Assembly: GCF_006345805.1 (NCBI RefSeq)
Contig: NW_021826138.1
Coordinates: forward strand, 1 to 13,344
Origin: Octopus sinensis
Lineage: Eukaryota
Length of the DNA stretch: 13,344 nt
Direction: 5' to 3'
How positions within the stretch are numbered: the first letter of the stretch is position 1; every line of letters begins with the position of its first letter. Made by a program: the position numbers and the translations under genes. Below, one piece after another: positions 172 to 12,423 of the stretch. A model generated the notes under the pieces. That model was given only the letters and a program-made list of their open reading frames with translations. It searched no databases and was not told the origin of the DNA.

Positions 172-291
172 ATATGCGGCCATATCACGTTGAAAGCACC
201 GGTTCTTGTCCGATCACCGAAGTTAAGCAACGTCGAGCCTAGTTAGTTCTTAGATGGGTGACCGCTTGGGAAACCTAGGTGCTGTAAGCGT
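172..291 (+). rRNA. 5S rRNA gene copy, probably a dispersed pseudogene
   Basis: CGGCCATATCACGTTGAAAGCACCGGTTCTTGTCCGATCACCGAAGTTAAGCAACGTCGAGCCTAGTTAGTTCTTAGATGGGTGACCGCTTGGGAAACCTAGGTGCTGTAAGC matches metazoan 5S colinearly over about 115 nt. The first ~5 nt are replaced by (TA)n, there are substitutions near the C box, there is no oligo-T terminator, and it is not in a tandem array. Confidence 0.93.
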
Positions 292-305
292 CACACATTG
301 TTATA

Positions 306-600
306 GGCGTTGGAGTGACTGTGTGGTAAGTAGCTTGCTTACCAACCACTTTGGTTCCGGGTTCAGTCCCACTGCGTAGCACCTTGGGCAAGTGTCTTCT
401 GCCATAGCCTCGAGCCGACCAAAGCCTTGTGCGTGGATTTGGTAGACGAAAACTGAAAGAAGCCCGTCGTATATATGTATATATATAGATATATATATGT
501 GTGTGTGTGTTTGTGTTTCTGTGTTTGTCCCCCCAACATCGCTTGACAACCGATTGTGGTGTGATAGAGACCGATAGAATAAGTACTAGGCTTACAAAGA

Positions 601-1531: not shown

Positions 1532-1929
1532 TACTCTTTTACTTGTTTCAGTCATTTGACTGTGACCATGCTGGAGCACCGCCTTCAGTCGAGCAAATCG
1601 ACACTAGGACTTATTCTTTGTAAGCCTAGTACTTATTCTATAGGTCTCTTTTACCGAACCGCTAAGTTACGGGGACGCAAACACACCAGCATCGGTTGTC
1701 AAGCGATGTTGGTGGGGGAACAAAAACACAAACACACAAACATATACACACACATATATGCATATATACATATATACGACGGGTTTCTTTCAGTTTCCGT
1801 CTACCAAATCCACTCACAAGGCTTTGGTCGGCCCGAGGCTATAGTAGAAGACACTTGCCCAAGGTGCCACGCAGTGGGACTGAACCAGGGACCATGTGGT
1901 TCGTAAGCAAGCTACTTACAGCCACTCCT
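1532..1929 (-). mobile_element. tRNA-derived SINE, family A, near full length
   Basis: Reverse complement reads AGGAGTGGCTGTAAGTAGCTTGCTTACGAACCACATGGTCCCTGGTTCAGTCCCACTGCGTGGCACCTTGGGC...GACTGAAACAAGTAAAAGAGTA. Homologous to 306-603, with a small deletion in the A-box region. Confidence 0.9.
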
Positions 1930-1930
1930 A

Positions 1931-2219
1931 TACACAATATATTGTCAGCATGGGGAGCGAACCCCTAACATCCTCCAGCAGATAACAGGATCGCGAGACT
2001 GACTCAGTTTCGAGGTATTCGGCTCATCCCCAGTCGCGAACACCTCCATGCTAGAACGATAGCCAAAGTCCGCTACCGCGAACAGTATATTGTAAACAAT
2101 ATAAAAGTGAGCATCGATCACTGATCTGCAACAAGCAAAATAACTTGCCATAAAATCTCAAGAAGAGATCAGAGTAGTAACGTGTACTAAACAGAAAAGC
2201 CAGTCGCCACATCCATATA
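1931..2219 (-). mobile_element. hammerhead-containing repeat, copy 1 (candidate Penelope pLTR or retrozyme monomer, truncated)
   Basis: Colinear homology to ~6992-7274 (GGGGAGCGA, TCCAGCAGAT.ACAGG, ATATTGTAAACAA, TCACTGAT.TGCAAC, AGAGTAGTAAC, CACATC.ATATA). Contains the hammerhead fold at 1991-2039. Confidence 0.7.
1991..2039 (-). ncRNA. type I hammerhead ribozyme motif (core variant A6G)
   Basis: Minus strand: TCGCGA CTGGGGA T GAGC-CGAATA-CCTC GAA ACTG-AGT-CAGT C TCGCGA, i.e. stem I / CUGANGA-like core / extra nt / stem II / GAAA / stem III / GUC site / stem I'. Confidence 0.72.
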
Positions 2220-2774
2220 CAGGGTCAGGCAAAATGATCTGACACATTTGTAGGTTAAATAAAAGGCAAATGAAGTAAAGAAACAAAAAAAGTGTTTTTA
2301 TTTTTGAAAAGTACATATAATACCATTTGTTTTTATTATTTTTAAAATTAAATCAGTCAAATGGGATCCATTATTGTCCACACACTGTCGAAGGCGTTCA
2401 CGAAAGTTGTCAATAACTCGGCGGGTCATTTCACGTGGAATGGCAGTCATTTCTTGACGAATTGCATCTTTAAGTTCTGGCGGTGCGAGGTCGGCCGGTT
2501 GATTTTCGTTTCAATGCAGATCCAGTAGCTCTGAAGTTGGTAACCCATAACAAGATCGTGTTTCGAGCTGGTACGGGATCATGTCTACCAAGATTGAAGT
2601 GCAAACGGAACGCTCTTTGTGTTGCAGTTATAGAATCGTTTGTTTTGATAAACGTTTCCACAATGAAAGCGCGATGCTCACCAGTCCAATTCATGGCAGC
2701 AACTGAAAAAAGGATCGAAAAACAATGCCTTTTATTTAAACTACAAATGTGTCAGATCATTTTGCCTGACCCTG
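2220..2774 (-). mobile_element. non-autonomous Tc1/mariner element, 555 bp, internally deleted
   Basis: 49-bp TIRs with one mismatch (CAGGGTCAGGCAAAATGATCTGACACATTTGTAG[G/T]TTAAATAAAAGGCA) at 2220-2268 and 2726-2774. TA target duplication at 2218-2219 and 2775-2776. Transposase N- and C-terminal remnants inside. Confidence 0.95.
2340..2694 (-). pseudogene. transposase remnant: N-terminal HTH (DUF4817-like) fused out of frame to the C-terminal helix, DDD domain deleted
   Basis: ORF 2470..2694 MNWTGEHRAFIVETFIKTNDSITATQRAFRLHF...TILLWVTNFRATGS...GRPRTART*. The +1 frame continues ELKDAIRQEMTAIPREMTRRVIDNFRERLRQCVDNNGSHLTDLI, a typical Tc1/mariner C-terminus (rosa/DD41D-like by recollection). 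Confidence 0.85.
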
Positions 2775-2819
2775 TATATACGACGGTCTTCGGCCCGAGG
2801 CTATAGTAGAAGACACTTG
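2775..2819 (-). mobile_element. short deleted fragment of SINE family A
   Basis: TATATACGACGG joined to TCGGCCCGAGGCTATAGTAGAAGACACTTG; matches ~1771-1857 with about 40 bp missing. Confidence 0.75.
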
Positions 2820-4561: not shown

Positions 4562-4892
4562 CTTTATATATGAATATACACACGCATATCTATCTATCTA
4601 TCTATCTATTATACGTACATACATGCGTATGTATTCACTTTCACTCGTGCCTACAAGCTGTAAACAAACACATAAATATATATATATATATACTCATATG
4701 TAACATAACCCAGGGTGAAAATGCTAATGAGTATAAATGACATCAATATCCGTTAAAGGGAAGCGAAGACTAAAGCTTTTAAAAGTTTTTCAAATGACTT
4801 CCGTAGAAATAATTGTATAGATCCTGCAAGCATGACTGACGTAACAAGCGGTGTAGTCCAGCAGAGAAGGCCCGCTTGTAAACTCATCCAGG

Positions 4893-5322
4893 TTAGAAGA
4901 AAAACGGCCATCTTTGGTTTCAAGACGAAAGGTGTTCTTCCATTAAGATAATGCTCGGTTATATACAACGAGGATGGCATTCCAAAGGCTGAAGCACTTT
5001 GAACGGGAAACGATGCTCCACACACCATATTCGCTGGACATTGCCCCATCTGATTATCATTTATTTCGCAGTCTTCAAAATAATTTGAACGGAAAAAATA
5101 TGAATTCTGTAGATGGGGTCAGAAAAGTACAGGAAGAGTGTTTTTTGTCACGGACAAGTGAATTTTGGAAGATGGGCTTTGCAAGTTTACCAGATTGATG
5201 GAAAAGCATTGTAGATAATGAAGGAGAGTATATTTTAGATTAAAAACAGAACTTTGTTTATCTTAATTTTGAAAAATGAAAGAAGTATAAAAAAAACTGC
5301 ATTATTTATGGGATGACTCAAT
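4893..5322 (+). mobile_element. mariner (DD34D) transposon 3' half, pseudogenised
   Basis: In-frame LEEKRPSLVSRRKVFFH*DNARLYTTRM...HTPYSLDIAPSDYHLFRSLQNNLNG...LPD*WKSIVDNEGEYILD* (stop 5241-5243). 34 residues between the last two catalytic Asp; two premature stops; TIR-like end ATTATTTATGGGATGACTCAAT followed by TA. Confidence 0.93.
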
Positions 5323-6917: not shown

Positions 6918-7483
6918 TGTTCAATGTGGCTAGTAGTTTAACACCAGACAGATCTTCTGTCAGCTGGTTATAGGTGCAGCTCTGCACGCTGTACATATAT
7001 ATACTGCAAGCAGGGGAGCGATCCCTTACAATCTTCCAGCAGATGACAGGGTCGTTAGACCGATTCGGTTTCGAGCTAGTTTGCTTGTTCTCAGTCGCAA
7101 AACTCCTGATCGCCAGATAGATGGCCATAGTTCGCTCCAGCCAGCAACATATTGTAAACAAAGCGACTATCGGTCACTGATTTGCAACGAGCAATGTAGC
7201 TTGTTGTAAAATCCGAATAAGAGACGAGAGTAGTAACTACACGAACAAGTAAAGTTAATCGTCACATCAATATAGGTTGTTCAGTGTTACTACTAGTTTA
7301 ACCCCAGGCAGATCTCCCGCCAGCTGGTTATAAGTGCAGCACCGCACCCTGTACATATGTATTGCCAGTAGGGGAGCACCACTGCACTCTCTACATATAT
7401 ATTGCCAGCAGGAGAGCTGCATCTATAACTAGCTGGTGGAAGATCTGCCTAGGTTAAACAAGCAGTAACACGAAACAGCCATA
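6918..7483 (-). mobile_element. hammerhead-containing repeat, copy 2: 360-bp monomer, partial tandem and terminal inversion
   Basis: 6918-7019 is repeated at 7278-7378 (offset 360). A ~38-bp sub-duplication lies at 7379-7417. 7413-7483 is an inverted copy of ~7272-7343. Homologous to 1931-2219. Confidence 0.78.
7052..7100 (-). ncRNA. type I hammerhead ribozyme motif (degenerate, G8A)
   Basis: Minus strand: TTGCGA CTGAGAA C AAGC-AAACTA-GCTC GAA ACCG-AAT-CGGT C TAACGA. Same length and register as 1991-2039. Confidence 0.62.
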
Positions 7484-7524
7484 CTTTCGTATCTTATTGA
7501 GATCTTACAGCTAGCTACTTTGCT

Positions 7525-7643
<119 letters not shown>

Positions 7644-7644
7644 G

Positions 7645-8700
7645 CAGGGTGCGTAAGATATTTGACGACAGATTTATGTTTATGAAAAAACATATATAAT
7701 AAAAGATAACTTTATTTATCAAAAAATGCTTTGAAGATAAAAATAAACCTCATCTATAATGTTATTTAATAAAGCCACCTTCAGCTTCAACAACTGCTTC
7801 TATATGAGATCTAAATCATCTACATGCTCGAATCAAGAGGTCCTGGTTCACATTGGACATTATCCTGACTATGGCAGCTTTCAAAGAATCTTTGGTGTTA
7901 TGAGCATGTTCATTGACCTCTCCCTCAACAATGCTCTACGTGTAATAGTCCAATGGATTGAGATCTGGGGAATTAGGAGGCCAAATGTTGGGGGTTATGT
8001 AATCATGAACATTTTCAGCCATCGTTTCCTGTGTTACTAGAGCCATGTGTGATAGTGCAGAGTCTTACTGAAACACATATGACATTCCATTGCATGCACT
8101 GTCTAACAATTATTTCCAGGACCTCAATGTAGGCGGCAGAGTTAACTTTAAAGAATTGTGGAAAGAAGTAAGGACGCATCACATCTCCTTCATTGCTGAA
8201 AAACCCTAAAACCATGACAGTTGCTGGAAATTTGTAGGCATAACACTTGGAACTTTACAAGGGTCTGCACATAAGCATCTGTCATTTCTTGTGTTAACTT
8301 TTTGATCTTGGTCAACTTTTGCTCGTTTGAGGAAAACCAAATCAAATCCTCTTCTGTTGGACTTTTCAGTTTCTTTAAGAACCTTTTAGTTCTGATGCAA
8401 TGATTTTCTTTTGCTTTTTCTGACAAATTGACCTTTCCTCATCATATAAGACTTATATCTGATGTCTTCGTAGACAACATTTTCGATTGTTCCTTTTGGC
8501 ACATGGAGATCTTTTGCAATTGACCTTATAGACTTTCTGGAATTGTAATCAATGGTCTGTTGAACTTGCTGGATAAATTCAAGTGTTCTTATGATTTCAG
8601 AGCGTTTAGAATGCTTTTTAAGCTTTGATACTGGTGATACGCTTCCATCTTCAGTCTCTAACTCCTTACAAACTTTGCATACGGAAGACTTATCTAAACA
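7645..8700 (-). mobile_element. DD37D (maT-type) Tc1/mariner transposon, pseudogenised
   Basis: Frameshifted pieces: ...KSIRSIAKDLHVPKGTIENVVYEDIRYKSY..., LIWFSSNE, MVLGFFSNEGDVMRPYFF, YVFQ*DSALSH...WPPNSPDLNPLDYY (37 residues between Asp), ...VVEAEGGFIK* (stop 7762-7764). TIR-like CAGGGTGCGTAAGATA at 7645; partner TIR not recognisable. Confidence 0.93.
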
Positions 8701-8858
8701 ATCACCCAAAGAGGTGCATTTTACACCTTGATATTTGATAATAATTACACGACATCTCACCAATATCCTACAGGTGTAAAAATGTGTCGAAACAATTGTA
8801 ATGATCTCGAGCAAAAAATGTCATTTATTCTATTTTCTGGCAATTATACTGTATGGAC

Positions 8859-9430: not shown

Positions 9431-9622
9431 CTATGATGCTCCCCACTACTTCTGCTCGTGATCAGAGATGCACATATCGTCAGTCACTAAGGGATATTCT
9501 CAACTGGTTAAGGTCAAGCAACTGACAAGCAAATCTGTGGTATTGGGCAAAATATTTGCTGTAGCCCATCTTTTATACCAAGACAAAACAATGTACATGA
9601 TGACACCTCCAATCAGTTAAGA
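9431..9622 (-). mobile_element. fragment of (TAA)n-associated retroelement, inverted relative to 9669-10112
   Basis: 9431-9555 is the reverse complement of 9669-9793 (125 bp, 9 mismatches counted by eye); followed by ~67 bp of further non-repetitive sequence before (AAT)n. Confidence 0.8.
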
Positions 9623-9668
9623 TAATAATAATAATAATATAATATAATAATAATATAATAATAATAAT

Positions 9669-10112
9669 ATATTCTGCTCAATACCACAGATTTGCTTGTC
9701 AGTTGTTTGACCTTAACCAGTTGAGCATGTCCCTTCGTGGCTGACAATATGTGCATCTCTGATCACAAGCAGAAGTAGTGGGGAGCATCATAGCCATGTG
9801 TTGAGAGGGATTCTTTGGGGTTTGAATAGTTCACCTCTGGAAACATGGGTGGTTCTTTCAACATCCTTAAACAACCCTTATTCAGGGACCGTTTGAGCGG
9901 GATGGGCTACTCAATCTGAAGAAAATTCTAACTGGGCCCCACCTGCAAGGTCATGTGCTGTTTATCTGATATGAGATCACCATGTCGCGCACATATGGTT
10001 GTGATGCATGTGCCTGGTGTACCTTTATCAGACGGGTAGTCATGATGGGTATATTGGGCTTCGTATATTTTACCCCAGTGTCACTTTGATGGCATGCACT
10101 GCTCTCTCACTC

Positions 10113-10522: not shown

Positions 10523-10819
10523 CTTCCTTCTCGAGCCATGCCTGGCTCATAAGGGCCGGTTTCCTAGTTTCCTTGGCGTATAGGTTCCCTACCTGGACGG
10601 GACGCCGGTCCGTCGCAGGTGAGCTGCAAGATGCAAGAAAAAAGAGTGAGAGAAAGTTGTGGCGAAAGAGTCACCAGAAGTTCGTCATTACCCTCAGCCG
10701 GAGCCTCATGGAGCTTAGGTGTTTCGCTCATAAATACACACACCGCCCGGTTTGAAATTTGAACCCGCGATCCCTCGACCGCCTCTCCGGTGCTCTTACC
10801 ACTAGGCCATCTGCTTCCA
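10523..10819 (-). mobile_element. tRNA-derived SINE, family B, tail type 1
   Basis: Reverse complement has A box TGGCCTAGTGG and B box GGTTCAAATTT. Body GAGCGAAACACCTAAGCTCCATGAGGCTCCGGC...CCACAACTTTCTCTCACTCTT is shared with 10865-11254. Distinct tail CCTGCGACGGACCGGCGTCCCGTCCAGG...GAGCCAGGCATGGCTCGAGAAGG. Confidence 0.88.
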
Positions 10820-10864
10820 CTTTCCAATCTGTTATCATATGGTTTTGCAAAGTCTCTATTTTTA

Positions 10865-11254
10865 CACGCAATGGCCCAGTGGTTAGGGCAGCGGACTCGC
10901 GGTCGTAGGATCGCGGTTTCGATTCCCAGACCGGGCGTTGTGAGTGTTTATTGAGCGAAAACACCTAAAAGCTCCACGAGGCTCCGGCAGGGGATGGTGG
11001 TGATCCCTGCTGTACTCTTTCACCACAACTTTCTCTCACTCTTACTTCCTGTTTCTGTTGTACCTGTATTTCAAAGGGGCCGGCCTTGTCACTCTCTGTG
11101 TCACGCTGAATATCCCCGAGAACTACGTTAAGGGTACACGTATCTGTGGAGTGCTCAGCCACTTACACGTTAATTTCACGACCAGGCTGTTCCGTTGATC
11201 GGATCAACCGGAACCCTCGTCGTCGTAACCGACGGAGTGCTTCCATCCATCCAT
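10865..11254 (+). mobile_element. tRNA-derived SINE, family B, tail type 2, full length
   Basis: A box TGGCCCAGTGG (10872-10882), B box GTTTCGATTCC, tRNA-like head, ends GACGGAGTGCTT(CCAT)3. Confidence 0.9.
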
Positions 11255-11448: not shown

Positions 11449-12423
11449 CAGAAAGGTTAGCAAGCCGGGCGAAATGCTTAGCGGTATTTCGTCTGCCGCT
11501 ACGTTCTGAGTTCAAATTCCACCAAGGTCGACTTTGCCTTTCATCAATTCGGGGTCGGTAAATTAAGTACCAGTTACGCATTGGGGTCGATATAATCGAC
11601 TTAATCCGTCTGTCTGTCCTTGTTTGTCCTCTCTGTGTTAAGCCCTTGTGGGTAGTAAAGAAATAGGTATTTCGTCTGCCGCTACGTTGTGAGTTCAAAT
11701 TTCGCCGAGGTCAACTTTGCCTTTCATCCTTTCGGGGGTCGATAAATTAAGTACCAGTTACGCATTGGGGTCGATATAATCGACTTAATCCGTTTGTCTG
11801 TACTTGTTTGTTCCCTCTGTGTTAAGCCCCTTGTAGGCCGTAAAGAAATAGGTATTTCATGTGCCGTTACGTTCTGAGTTCAAATTCCGCCAAGGTCGAC
11901 TTTGCCTTTCATCCTTTCGGGGTCGGTAAATTAAGTACCAGTTACGCATTGGGGTCGATATAATCGACTTAATCCGTTTGTCAGTCCTTATTTGTCCCCT
12001 CTATGTTTAGCCCTTTTTGGGCAATAAAGAAATAGGTATTTCATCTGTCGTTACGTTCTGAGTTCAAGTTTTGCCTTTCATCCTTTCGGGGTCGATTAAA
12101 TAAGTACCAGTTACGCACTGGGGGTCGATATAATCGACTTAATCCGTTTGTCTATCCTTGTTTGTCCTCTCTGTGTTTAGCCCCTTGTGGGTAGTAAAGA
12201 AATAGGTATTTCGTCTGCCGCTACGTTGTGAGTTCAAATTTCGCCGAGGTCGACTTTACCTTTCATCCTTTCGGGGGTCGATTAAATAAGTACCAGTTAC
12301 GCACTGGGGTCGATGTGATCGACTTAATCCGTGTGTCTATCCTTGTTTGTCCTCTCTGTGTTTAGCCCCTTGTGGGTAGTAAAGAAATAGGTATTTCGTC
12401 TGCCGCTACGTTCTGAGTTCAAA
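11449..12423 (+). repeat. tandem array of SINE family C: five 170-185 bp units plus a partial sixth
   Basis: Units start GGTATTTC at 11483, 11666, 11851, 12035, 12205 and 12390. Most units keep the B-box-like GAGTTCAAATT (partly deleted in unit 4); the five full units carry CCTTTCATC..TTCGGGG(G)TCG...TAAGTACCAG. Only the first unit has extra upstream head sequence. Confidence 0.93.

What the first reader, a model, noticed from the sequence alone, without database searches (positions are those of the whole stretch)
1991..2039. Two decayed copies reconstruct an intact hammerhead consensus with a compensated stem III
Copy 1 is TCGCGA-CTGGGGA-T-GAGCCGAATACCTC-GAA-ACTGAGTCAGT-C-TCGCGA; copy 2 is TTGCGA-CTGAGAA-C-AAGCAAACTAGCTC-GAA-ACCGAATCGGT-C-TAACGA. 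Each has a different single core lesion, so the consensus is the canonical CUGAGGA...GAAA...GUC with stem II GAGC/GCUC. Stem III is U-A in one copy and C-G in the other, and the stem II loop varies freely. Both stem I arms in copy 1 are the palindrome TCGCGA, which could allow intermolecular pairing. Caveat: the stem III double change could also arise from two CpG deaminations. Both local copies are probably inactive.
Basis: partly seen in the sequence, partly recalled or inferred. Interest (0 to 1): 0.75.

Follow-up and report, generated by a model that had tools for sequence, protein, structure and literature searches.

The report
Fossil dimer-type hammerhead retrozyme family
These are two dead copies of an old 356-base jumping element whose ancestor carried a hammerhead RNA predicted to cut itself, likely in pairs, and which was likely pasted around the genome by a Penelope-type enzyme; this kind of element is already known in animals.

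Summary
The motif is real: both copies match a type I hammerhead layout on the minus strand (2 matches, 0 expected). They belong to an old, dispersed, ORF-free 356-nt repeat (161 distinct copies examined, on average 10-13% from their subfamily consensus) that fits a non-LTR retrozyme. Its insertions carry Penelope footprints: two fixed 3' ends about 58 nt apart, back-to-back arms, TA targets and more-than-unit lengths. The palindrome that is kept is helix III. It survives five sequence states, including covariation at a pair that can only form between two hammerheads. The copies decay neutrally (core 9.6% vs flank 10.9%, P=0.30). Two side results: the monomer circle is predicted to block its own core, and the youngest branch lost A9. 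Cleavage and expression are untested. The scan has reported this element type many times on other DNA of this genome, probably including this family.

The parts
1927..2218 (-). Copy 1: partial unit (unit positions 13-295) of subfamily C, 10.5% from its consensus; cut at its 5' side by a MITE-like insertion and abutting a SINE-like repeat at its 3' side
1986..2046 (-). Decayed type I hammerhead of copy 1: distal stem I 2046-2043/1989-1986, proximal stem I 2039-2034/1996-1991, core 2033-2027 with A6G at 2030, extra U 2026, stem II 2025-2012 with a mismatch at 2015, palindromic helix III 2008-1998, C17 at 1997
6918..7377 (-). Copy 2, long arm: 460 nt, 1.3 units running across the unit junction (unit 266-356 then 1-9), subfamily A, about 12% from consensus
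7047..7108 (-). Decayed type I hammerhead of copy 2: C3 at 7094, G8A at 7089, extra C 7087, G10.1A at 7086, helix III (C-G form) 7069-7059, C17 at 7058, stem I mismatches at 7055-7056
7336..7417 (.). 40-bp duplication at the junction between the two arms of copy 2
7413..7524 (+). Copy 2, inverted short arm (unit 300-15, then 54-96), ending at the family's second fixed 3' end
7526..7640 (+). (CT)40(TA)18 microsatellite next to the 3' end of the short arm; likely the target site

Best explanation
The two motifs are dead copies of an old, ORF-free 356-nt repeat family, likely a non-LTR retrozyme whose masters were predicted to self-cleave with a type I hammerhead and were likely reverse-transcribed into TA-rich DNA by a Penelope-type enzyme. 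Shown: unit length, four subfamilies, covariation in all helices, neutral decay of copies, fixed 3' ends and more-than-unit insertions. Inferred mechanism: a master locus of more than one unit was transcribed; hammerheads cut after C17; host ligase closed 356-nt circles; a Penelope reverse transcriptase/GIY-YIG protein nicked TA-rich DNA, started copying at one of two internal sites (unit ~39 and ~97), ran round the template for a variable distance, and often did so from both ends, giving back-to-back arms. Cleavage likely used a double hammerhead, in which the palindromic helix III of two units pairs (about 60% within this model). In a single unit the 3' half of that palindrome is predicted to pair with the CUGA box and block the core.
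For: Family: 682, 710 and 1149 first-look candidates with 40 scored each; 136 then 161 distinct hammerhead-covering copies; unit 356 nt, 47.8% GC; longest stop-free stretch 80-117 aa. Structure: on 93 copies, 85.2% of cells pair against 28-36% for slid partners; 72 two-sided changes against 32+/-4.8 shuffled, 0 of 500. Linked changes: stem I A-U to G-C in 18 of 114; helix III U-A to C-G in 11 of 110; innermost helix III positions A..U to G..C in 9 of 104. N7 is the only core-box position that differs among the four consensuses. An open-centre genome pattern gave 32 matches: 16 A..T, 11 G..C, 3 G..T, 2 unpaired (P=9e-5 on the 31 A/G rows). These two bases flank one nucleotide and cannot pair within a hairpin. 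Isolated-domain dimers fold as the double hammerhead at minimum energy in 4 of 5 versions. Circle folding z is -7.7 to -9.1 on the sense strand. Of 22 pairs touching subfamily differences 18 stay paired, and 0 of 100 re-dealt sets fold as well. Insertions: 102 of 169 segments end at unit 26-50 (62) or 76-104 (40), against 32 of the 5' ends; 18 of the 20 back-to-back pairs with both ends in these classes have one end at each site; TA repeats follow 41 of 102 ends against 101 of 1270 random sites; 60 of 169 segments exceed 370 nt; 10 cross the cleavage site twice. Penelope-type ORFs with RT and GIY-YIG exist in this genome. Two start sites and a tail are described as peculiar to PLEs (PMC11167929).
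Against: No cleavage, circle or abundant transcript was shown. No array of two complete units with two intact hammerheads was seen among the fetched loci. The partner is unidentified: the PLE loci fetched share no DNA similarity with the unit (best E 0.11). In full-length tandem dimers the double hammerhead has probability 0.00 in 6 of 6 versions. Forcing it costs 4.4-12.7 kcal/mol and is cheaper than two single hammerheads in only 4 of 6. The single active fold costs only 3.1-5.9 kcal/mol in 5 of 6 versions, which loop-loop contacts not modelled here might repay. Each compensatory change is one or two events on the master lineage, not many independent ones. The youngest branch amplified without A9, and a PLE inserted normally in vitro with a dead hammerhead (PMC11167929), so cleavage may not have been needed. 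Loci were chosen by similarity, which favours long copies.
Confidence: 0.82

Rival explanations
1. The unit is a solo pseudo-LTR or deletion derivative of a lost Penelope-like element. It spread from uncut multimeric transcripts, with a slow or dispensable hammerhead and no RNA circle.
For: Tail, inversion and TA targets are PLE traits. The extra nucleotide after A9 and a palindromic helix III are traits of PLE hammerheads. Ten segments cross the cleavage site twice, which uncut multimers also explain. A branch without A9 amplified to at least 24 copies. Few ends lie near the cleavage site (5 of 169 5' ends, 2 of 169 3' ends).
Against: Units join head to tail with no ORF between them. The 44 similarity rows among 338 flanks link small groups of loci at differing unit positions; I read them as other repeats, not one parent element (not annotated). 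The whole unit keeps a compact fold through subfamily changes. The hammerhead has full helix III and loop-contact bases, unlike minimal PLE hammerheads.
Confidence: 0.12
2. The element is a retrozyme, but its hammerhead works as a monomer. The helix III palindrome is kept by template switching or conversion during copying, not by selection for dimer pairing.
For: Helix III has 4 bp as a hairpin, longer than the 1-2 bp of known dimer-dependent forms. Loop-contact bases are conserved. Full-length dimers are not predicted to form the double hammerhead. Invertebrate retrozymes were reported to cleave efficiently as monomers.
Against: The innermost positions covary although they cannot pair in a hairpin. 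A branch shortened the palindrome to 10 nt, which weakens the hairpin (forced monomer cost 10 kcal/mol) but keeps full dimer pairing. The hairpin alone is -0.5 kcal/mol against -13.2 to -16.6 for the duplex.
Confidence: 0.35
3. The motif is a chance resemblance inside an ordinary SINE, MITE or satellite.
For: Rfam finds no hammerhead in the window. Single copies fold no better than shuffles (z -0.07 and -0.67).
Against: All 14 core positions are in register in four subfamily consensuses, N7 is free, and helices covary. Fourteen exact intact cores exist against 0 controls. No tRNA was found in the window, and the ends are asymmetric.
Confidence: 0.02

Closest known systems
Metazoan non-LTR retrozymes (coral, Mytilus, axolotl; PMC7229834; bioRxiv 10.64898/2026.07.22.740005)
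   Same: Protein-free unit in the 150-450 bp range (mussel 350-390), one type I hammerhead per unit, under 50% GC, highly self-paired predicted circle, co-occurring with PLEs.
   Different: Old and decayed. Mostly 1-1.7 units with inverted arms rather than tandem arrays. Extra U after A9. Long palindromic helix III. The core is predicted to be blocked by self-pairing in the circle, whereas PMC7229834 reports most animal circles (except some mussel ones) as free to fold the ribozyme.
Hammerheads in pseudo-LTRs of Penelope-like elements (PMC4209133) and PLE insertion structure (PMC11167929, PMC8557442)
   Same: Nucleotide between 9 and 10.1, G10.1-C11.1, palindromic helix III, optional tail from two start sites, inverted truncated partner, AT-rich targets.
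   Different: No ORF. Canonical 6-bp and 4-bp helices with a capped loop 1 rather than the minimal form. Tail about 58 nt rather than 30-40.
Schistosoma mansoni type I hammerhead (PMC2632901)
   Same: Internal loop in stem I facing a hexaloop 2; the loop is CAAAUA in subfamilies C and D, identical to the published loop.
   Different: Extra core nucleotide, an 11-nt palindromic helix III, and a different repeat host.
Double hammerheads of newt/axolotl satellite 2 and ASBVd (PMC6155905, PMC7229834, PMC3088659 Fig. S8 legend)
   Same: A palindromic helix III and loop that can pair fully between two units.
   Different: Those have 1-2 bp helices that force dimer action; here 4 bp can form in a monomer, so dimer dependence is not given.

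Membership tests
Type I hammerhead ribozyme | Core C3 U4 G5 A6 N7 G8 A9, G12 A13 A14, A15.1-U16.1, H17 in register | tested here: met
   All 14 scored positions in four subfamily consensuses; 14 exact genomic copies. Not met by the two window copies or by the A9-less branch.
Type I hammerhead ribozyme | Three helices with helix I open, supported by covariation | tested here: met
   relatedness inflates the counts.
Type I hammerhead ribozyme | Loop 1-loop 2 contact bases | tested here: met
   Loop 2 last A in 110 of 120; U after stem I in 107 of 120; pyrimidine before stem I. The match to the Schistosoma contacts is my inference.
Type I hammerhead ribozyme | Self-cleavage after H17 | not testable with these tools
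   Needs transcription assays.
Non-LTR retrozyme | ORF-free unit of 150-450 bp with one type I hammerhead, GC under 50% | tested here: met
   356 nt, 47.8% GC; no stop-free stretch over 117 aa.
Non-LTR retrozyme | Head-to-tail tandem organisation | tested here: met
   60 of 169 segments exceed 370 nt; 10 span the cleavage site twice. The tandems are partial.
Non-LTR retrozyme | [quoted passage not shown] | tested here: not met
   None seen among fetched loci; this fits a dead family and bears on activity, not on origin.
Non-LTR retrozyme | Expression as linear and circular monomer RNA | tested here: inconclusive
   No RNA holder listed; only scattered diverged fragments in four contig sets.
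Non-LTR retrozyme | Target-site duplications longer than 4 bp where present | not tested
   Ends lie in microsatellites and are old.
Penelope-mobilised element | Two adjacent 3' ends (tail), variable 5' ends, inverted partner, AT-rich target | tested here: met
Autonomous Penelope-like element | RT plus GIY-YIG ORF between pseudo-LTRs | tested here: not met
   No ORF in the unit; no similarity to the PLE loci L148-L191.
Double (dimeric) hammerhead | Palindromic helix III pairing between two units and needed for cleavage | tested here: inconclusive
   Palindrome and dimer-only covariation met; full-length folding does not favour it; rate dependence is untestable here.

The most novel reading that the evidence does not exclude
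One short palindrome served as a two-state switch. In a single RNA circle its 3' half pairs with the CUGA box and protects the circle from cutting itself; in a multimer it pairs with the next unit's palindrome and switches both hammerheads on. The subfamily series records selection on this switch step by step, through wobble intermediates and a final branch that dropped A9. That would give a sequence-encoded answer to how animal retrozyme circles avoid self-cleavage.
Probability: 0.2. Interest if true: 0.62.

Novelty: new member of a known kind. Interest (0 to 1): 0.37.

Why it matters
As a family it adds one more, extinct, animal retrozyme; that is ordinary. Its value is as a natural mutation series. 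Four subfamilies and their sub-branches give five helix III states, one stem I swap and one core deletion, all easy to synthesise and assay. PMC7229834 leaves open how animal retrozyme circles are kept from cutting themselves, and this family predicts a built-in block that dimer pairing would release. The insertion ends also support Penelope enzymes as the carriers of retrozymes, which the papers I read argue from co-occurrence and phylogeny.

Tried and rejected
Rfam on the window and on 1940-2090: no hammerhead family hit. Stem I palindrome as the dimer interface: rejected, because it is lost in subfamily D. Decay of CpG within copies as the source of the helix III swap: rejected. Excess core conservation among copies: not found (80 of 831 against 1301 of 11970, P=0.30; only 8 of 72 flank-anchored copies keep all 14 core positions). 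Young sister families: not found; the best non-self matches were 74-81% and 77-86%, and a loop-2 pattern gave only 27 matches. These searches score 40 candidates each and could miss diverged relatives. Autonomous partner: 44 GIY-YIG/PLE loci share no DNA with the unit. Expression: no RNA holder listed; four runs guessed to be RNA gave only short diverged pieces; no evidence either way. Double hammerhead in full-length tandem dimers: not predicted; the folding program cannot model pairing between the tips of two folded rods or tertiary contacts. Rows dropped: 16 copies found by the intact-core pattern were left out of conservation counts (120 of 136 kept). The covariation alignment used 93 of the 94 copies with full cover (one with long insertions left out). 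The tree used 94 of 136 copies. Literature: searches for hammerhead with octopus, retrozyme, Penelope, cephalopod showed no paper describing this family. Supplement searches found no cephalopod names (one file of PMC4209133 not searched). The supplement of PMC7229834 could not be read and bioRxiv supplements are closed; both may bear on novelty. A published natural A9U/A9-less core was not found, but core variants are shown in figures I could not see.

Full report
Observation. The window is microsatellite- and repeat-rich animal DNA. It is contig C2609 of G000, a 2.7-Gb genome; earlier scan notes call it octopus-like, which I did not test. The surrounding 300 nt align at 216 of 304 columns. 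A family pattern hits only these two sites, against 0.00 expected. Rfam sees neither. A model built from 93 family copies, which include these two, finds no third copy in the window.

Family. DNA searches gave 682, 710 and 1149 first-look candidates, 40 scored each. An alignment of 35 copies gave a 356-nt unit of 47.8% GC that joins head to tail, with no stop-free stretch over 117 codons. I collected 136 distinct hammerhead-covering copies, later 161; 72 of the 136 were found by a pattern outside the hammerhead. A tree on non-hammerhead columns (94 copies) and reassignment gave subfamilies A-D (33, 38, 39, 26 copies). Mean divergence from consensus is 11.2-12.9% and the lowest is 6.8%. Copy 1 is in C (10.5%) and copy 2 in A (11.8%). 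No young expansion appeared.

Hammerhead anatomy. The family motif has a distal 4-bp helix, an internal loop, a 6-bp proximal stem I, the CUGANGA box, an extra U, a 4-bp stem II with a hexaloop, GAA, an 11-nt palindromic helix III, and C17. The extra nucleotide, G10.1-C11.1 and a palindromic helix III are listed as traits of PLE hammerheads (PMC4209133, parts 1-2 of 4 read). Loop 2 in C and D equals the Schistosoma loop, and its last A, which makes the loop-loop pair in solved structures (PMC2632901, passages), is kept in 110 of 120 copies. The four consensuses differ at 59 of 356 columns: none of 14 core positions (P=0.075), but N7 does. On 93 copies, 85.2% of cells pair against 28-36% with slid partners, and two-sided changes number 72 against 32 in shuffles. 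Kinship inflates these counts, and some arise from CpG decay on both sides.

The U-A form of helix III is a master state, because decay is one-sided there and two-sided at control CpGs. C-G occurs in 9 of 28 A copies and again in part of D, so by parsimony it arose from U-A, against the direction of deamination (inference). The stem I palindrome is incidental: D swaps the core-proximal pair to G-C in 17 of 24 copies. Both window copies carry more than one lesion and fold no better than shuffles. Changes at A6, or an unpaired C3 and A8, are expected to cut activity strongly (PMC3088659, section 8 read, for A6C and C3-G8; A6G and G8A themselves are my inference). Across 72 flank-anchored copies the core decays like the flanks (9.6% vs 10.9%, P=0.30), so any selection acted on masters, not on copies.

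Monomer or dimer. Helix III keeps full self-complementarity in five states: the common 11-mer with a central G, the C-G form in A, a form in D with the two innermost bases swapped, and two 10-nt forms in a D branch, one with a U-G wobble. The innermost bases flank a single nucleotide and cannot pair in a hairpin, yet an open-centre genome pattern gave 16 A..T, 11 G..C, 3 G..T and 2 others in 32 matches. This is one event on the master lineage, and template switching could also make it. In folding, the single domain prefers an inactive form by 3.1-5.9 kcal/mol, in which the 3' half of the palindrome pairs with the CUGA box. Two domains fold as the double hammerhead in 4 of 5 versions. Against this, full-length tandem dimers give the double hammerhead probability 0.00 in 6 of 6 versions, and forcing it beats two single hammerheads in only 4 of 6. 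Tertiary contacts are not modelled. Dimer action by palindromic helix III is established for newt, axolotl and ASBVd. PMC7229834 (sections 14 and 17 and passages read) says most animal circles leave the ribozyme unblocked, so the predicted block is the less usual feature. I put dimer use at about 60% and a selected switch at about 20%.

Whole-unit fold. Consensus circles fold with z -7.7 to -9.1 (sense) and -5.3 to -7.7 (antisense) against 60 shuffles each. The hammerhead sits at the tip of a rod from about unit 135 to 290. Of 22 pairs touching subfamily differences, 4 change on both sides, 14 on one side and 4 break; 0 of 100 re-dealt substitution sets fold as well. Copy 2 alone retains z -2.4.

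Mobilisation. Among 169 segments of 100 nt or more, 3' ends pile at unit 26-50 (62) and 76-104 (40), while 5' ends scatter (32 in the same bins). Of 48 back-to-back pairs, 20 have both ends in these classes, and 18 of those have one of each. TA repeats follow 41 of 102 such ends against 8% of random sites. Sixty segments exceed 370 nt and 10 cross the cleavage site twice, so the template was a circle or an uncut multimer; these data cannot tell which. Copy 2 shows the pattern itself: a 460-nt arm, an inverted short arm ending at unit 96, then (CT)40(TA)18. Two internal start sites producing a tail, AT-rich targets and inverted truncated partners are described for PLEs (PMC11167929, parts 1-2 of 4 read; PMC8557442, passages). 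The genome holds many GIY-YIG ORFs (147 matches among 150 scored), including near-identical 781-aa RT plus GIY-YIG frames, but none of those fetched shares DNA with the unit.

A core variant. Twenty-four of 54 D copies have a core one base shorter (most often CUGAUGU, A9 lost), against 1 of 107 outside D. This branch is the least diverged (mean 10.0%, lowest 5.6%). Either the variant still cuts, or cutting was dispensable for spread.

Comparison and verdict. The element works like the animal non-LTR retrozymes of PMC7229834 and the 2026 preprint (part 1 of 5 and passages read), and meets their sequence criteria. It fails the preprint's 'active array' criterion, and expression is untested. My paper searches found no description of this family, with unread supplements as the gap. 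The scan's own notes report many such families in this genome with the same two-ended insertions and one old ~359-nt family that may be this one; sequence look-ups returned nothing. My end analysis preceded those look-ups; the pair and target counts followed them. Verdict: real feature, new member of a known kind, dead copies, modest interest (0.37), with one testable side hypothesis.

Noticed in passing
G000, subfamily D copies (e.g. L095, L102, L145, L146, L232): The youngest branch has lost A9 (core most often CUGAUGU) and has a 10-nt helix III palindrome, often with a U-G wobble; 24 of 54 D copies against 1 of 107 others.
   Followed up: partly
window 172-290 +: Full-length 5S rRNA match (96.7 bits) standing alone between microsatellites; gene or retroposed copy.
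   Followed up: no
window 2215-2779: Element with 54-nt terminal inverted repeats (98%) holding a short frame that looks like a mariner-type transposase start (label recalled); it cuts the 5' side of copy 1.
   Followed up: no
window 352-532 and 1714-1894: Inverted pair of a SINE-like repeat, 181 nt, 85% complementary; a further fragment near 2780-2820.
   Followed up: no
window 11483-12423: Tandem array of five 184-nt units, 87% matches.
   Followed up: no
window 9431-9793 and 10730-10951: Two inverted-repeat structures with 125-nt and 81-nt arms.
   Followed up: no
window about 4700-5320 and 7640-8850: Decayed stretches that read like DNA-transposon remnants (frames; label recalled, not tested).
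   Followed up: no
L181:642-5479, L184, L186, L183, L188: Young Penelope-type family (99% identical copies) with an intact 781-aa RT plus GIY-YIG frame and an upstream 479-aa frame with no Pfam match.
   Followed up: partly
L181:84 + and L180:5021 +: Two other hammerhead-like motifs with palindromic helix III near PLE loci, unrelated in sequence to this unit.
   Followed up: partly
L204, L205, L210, L193, L195: Other decayed hammerhead-like motifs with the same CAAAUA loop, most without the extra nucleotide, and not similar to this unit.
   Followed up: partly
G000:C3:120025077-120031004 (L072-L074); L019 and L020: Whole insertions duplicated later with their flanks (three copies about 1.45 kb apart; two copies 48 kb apart).
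   Followed up: no
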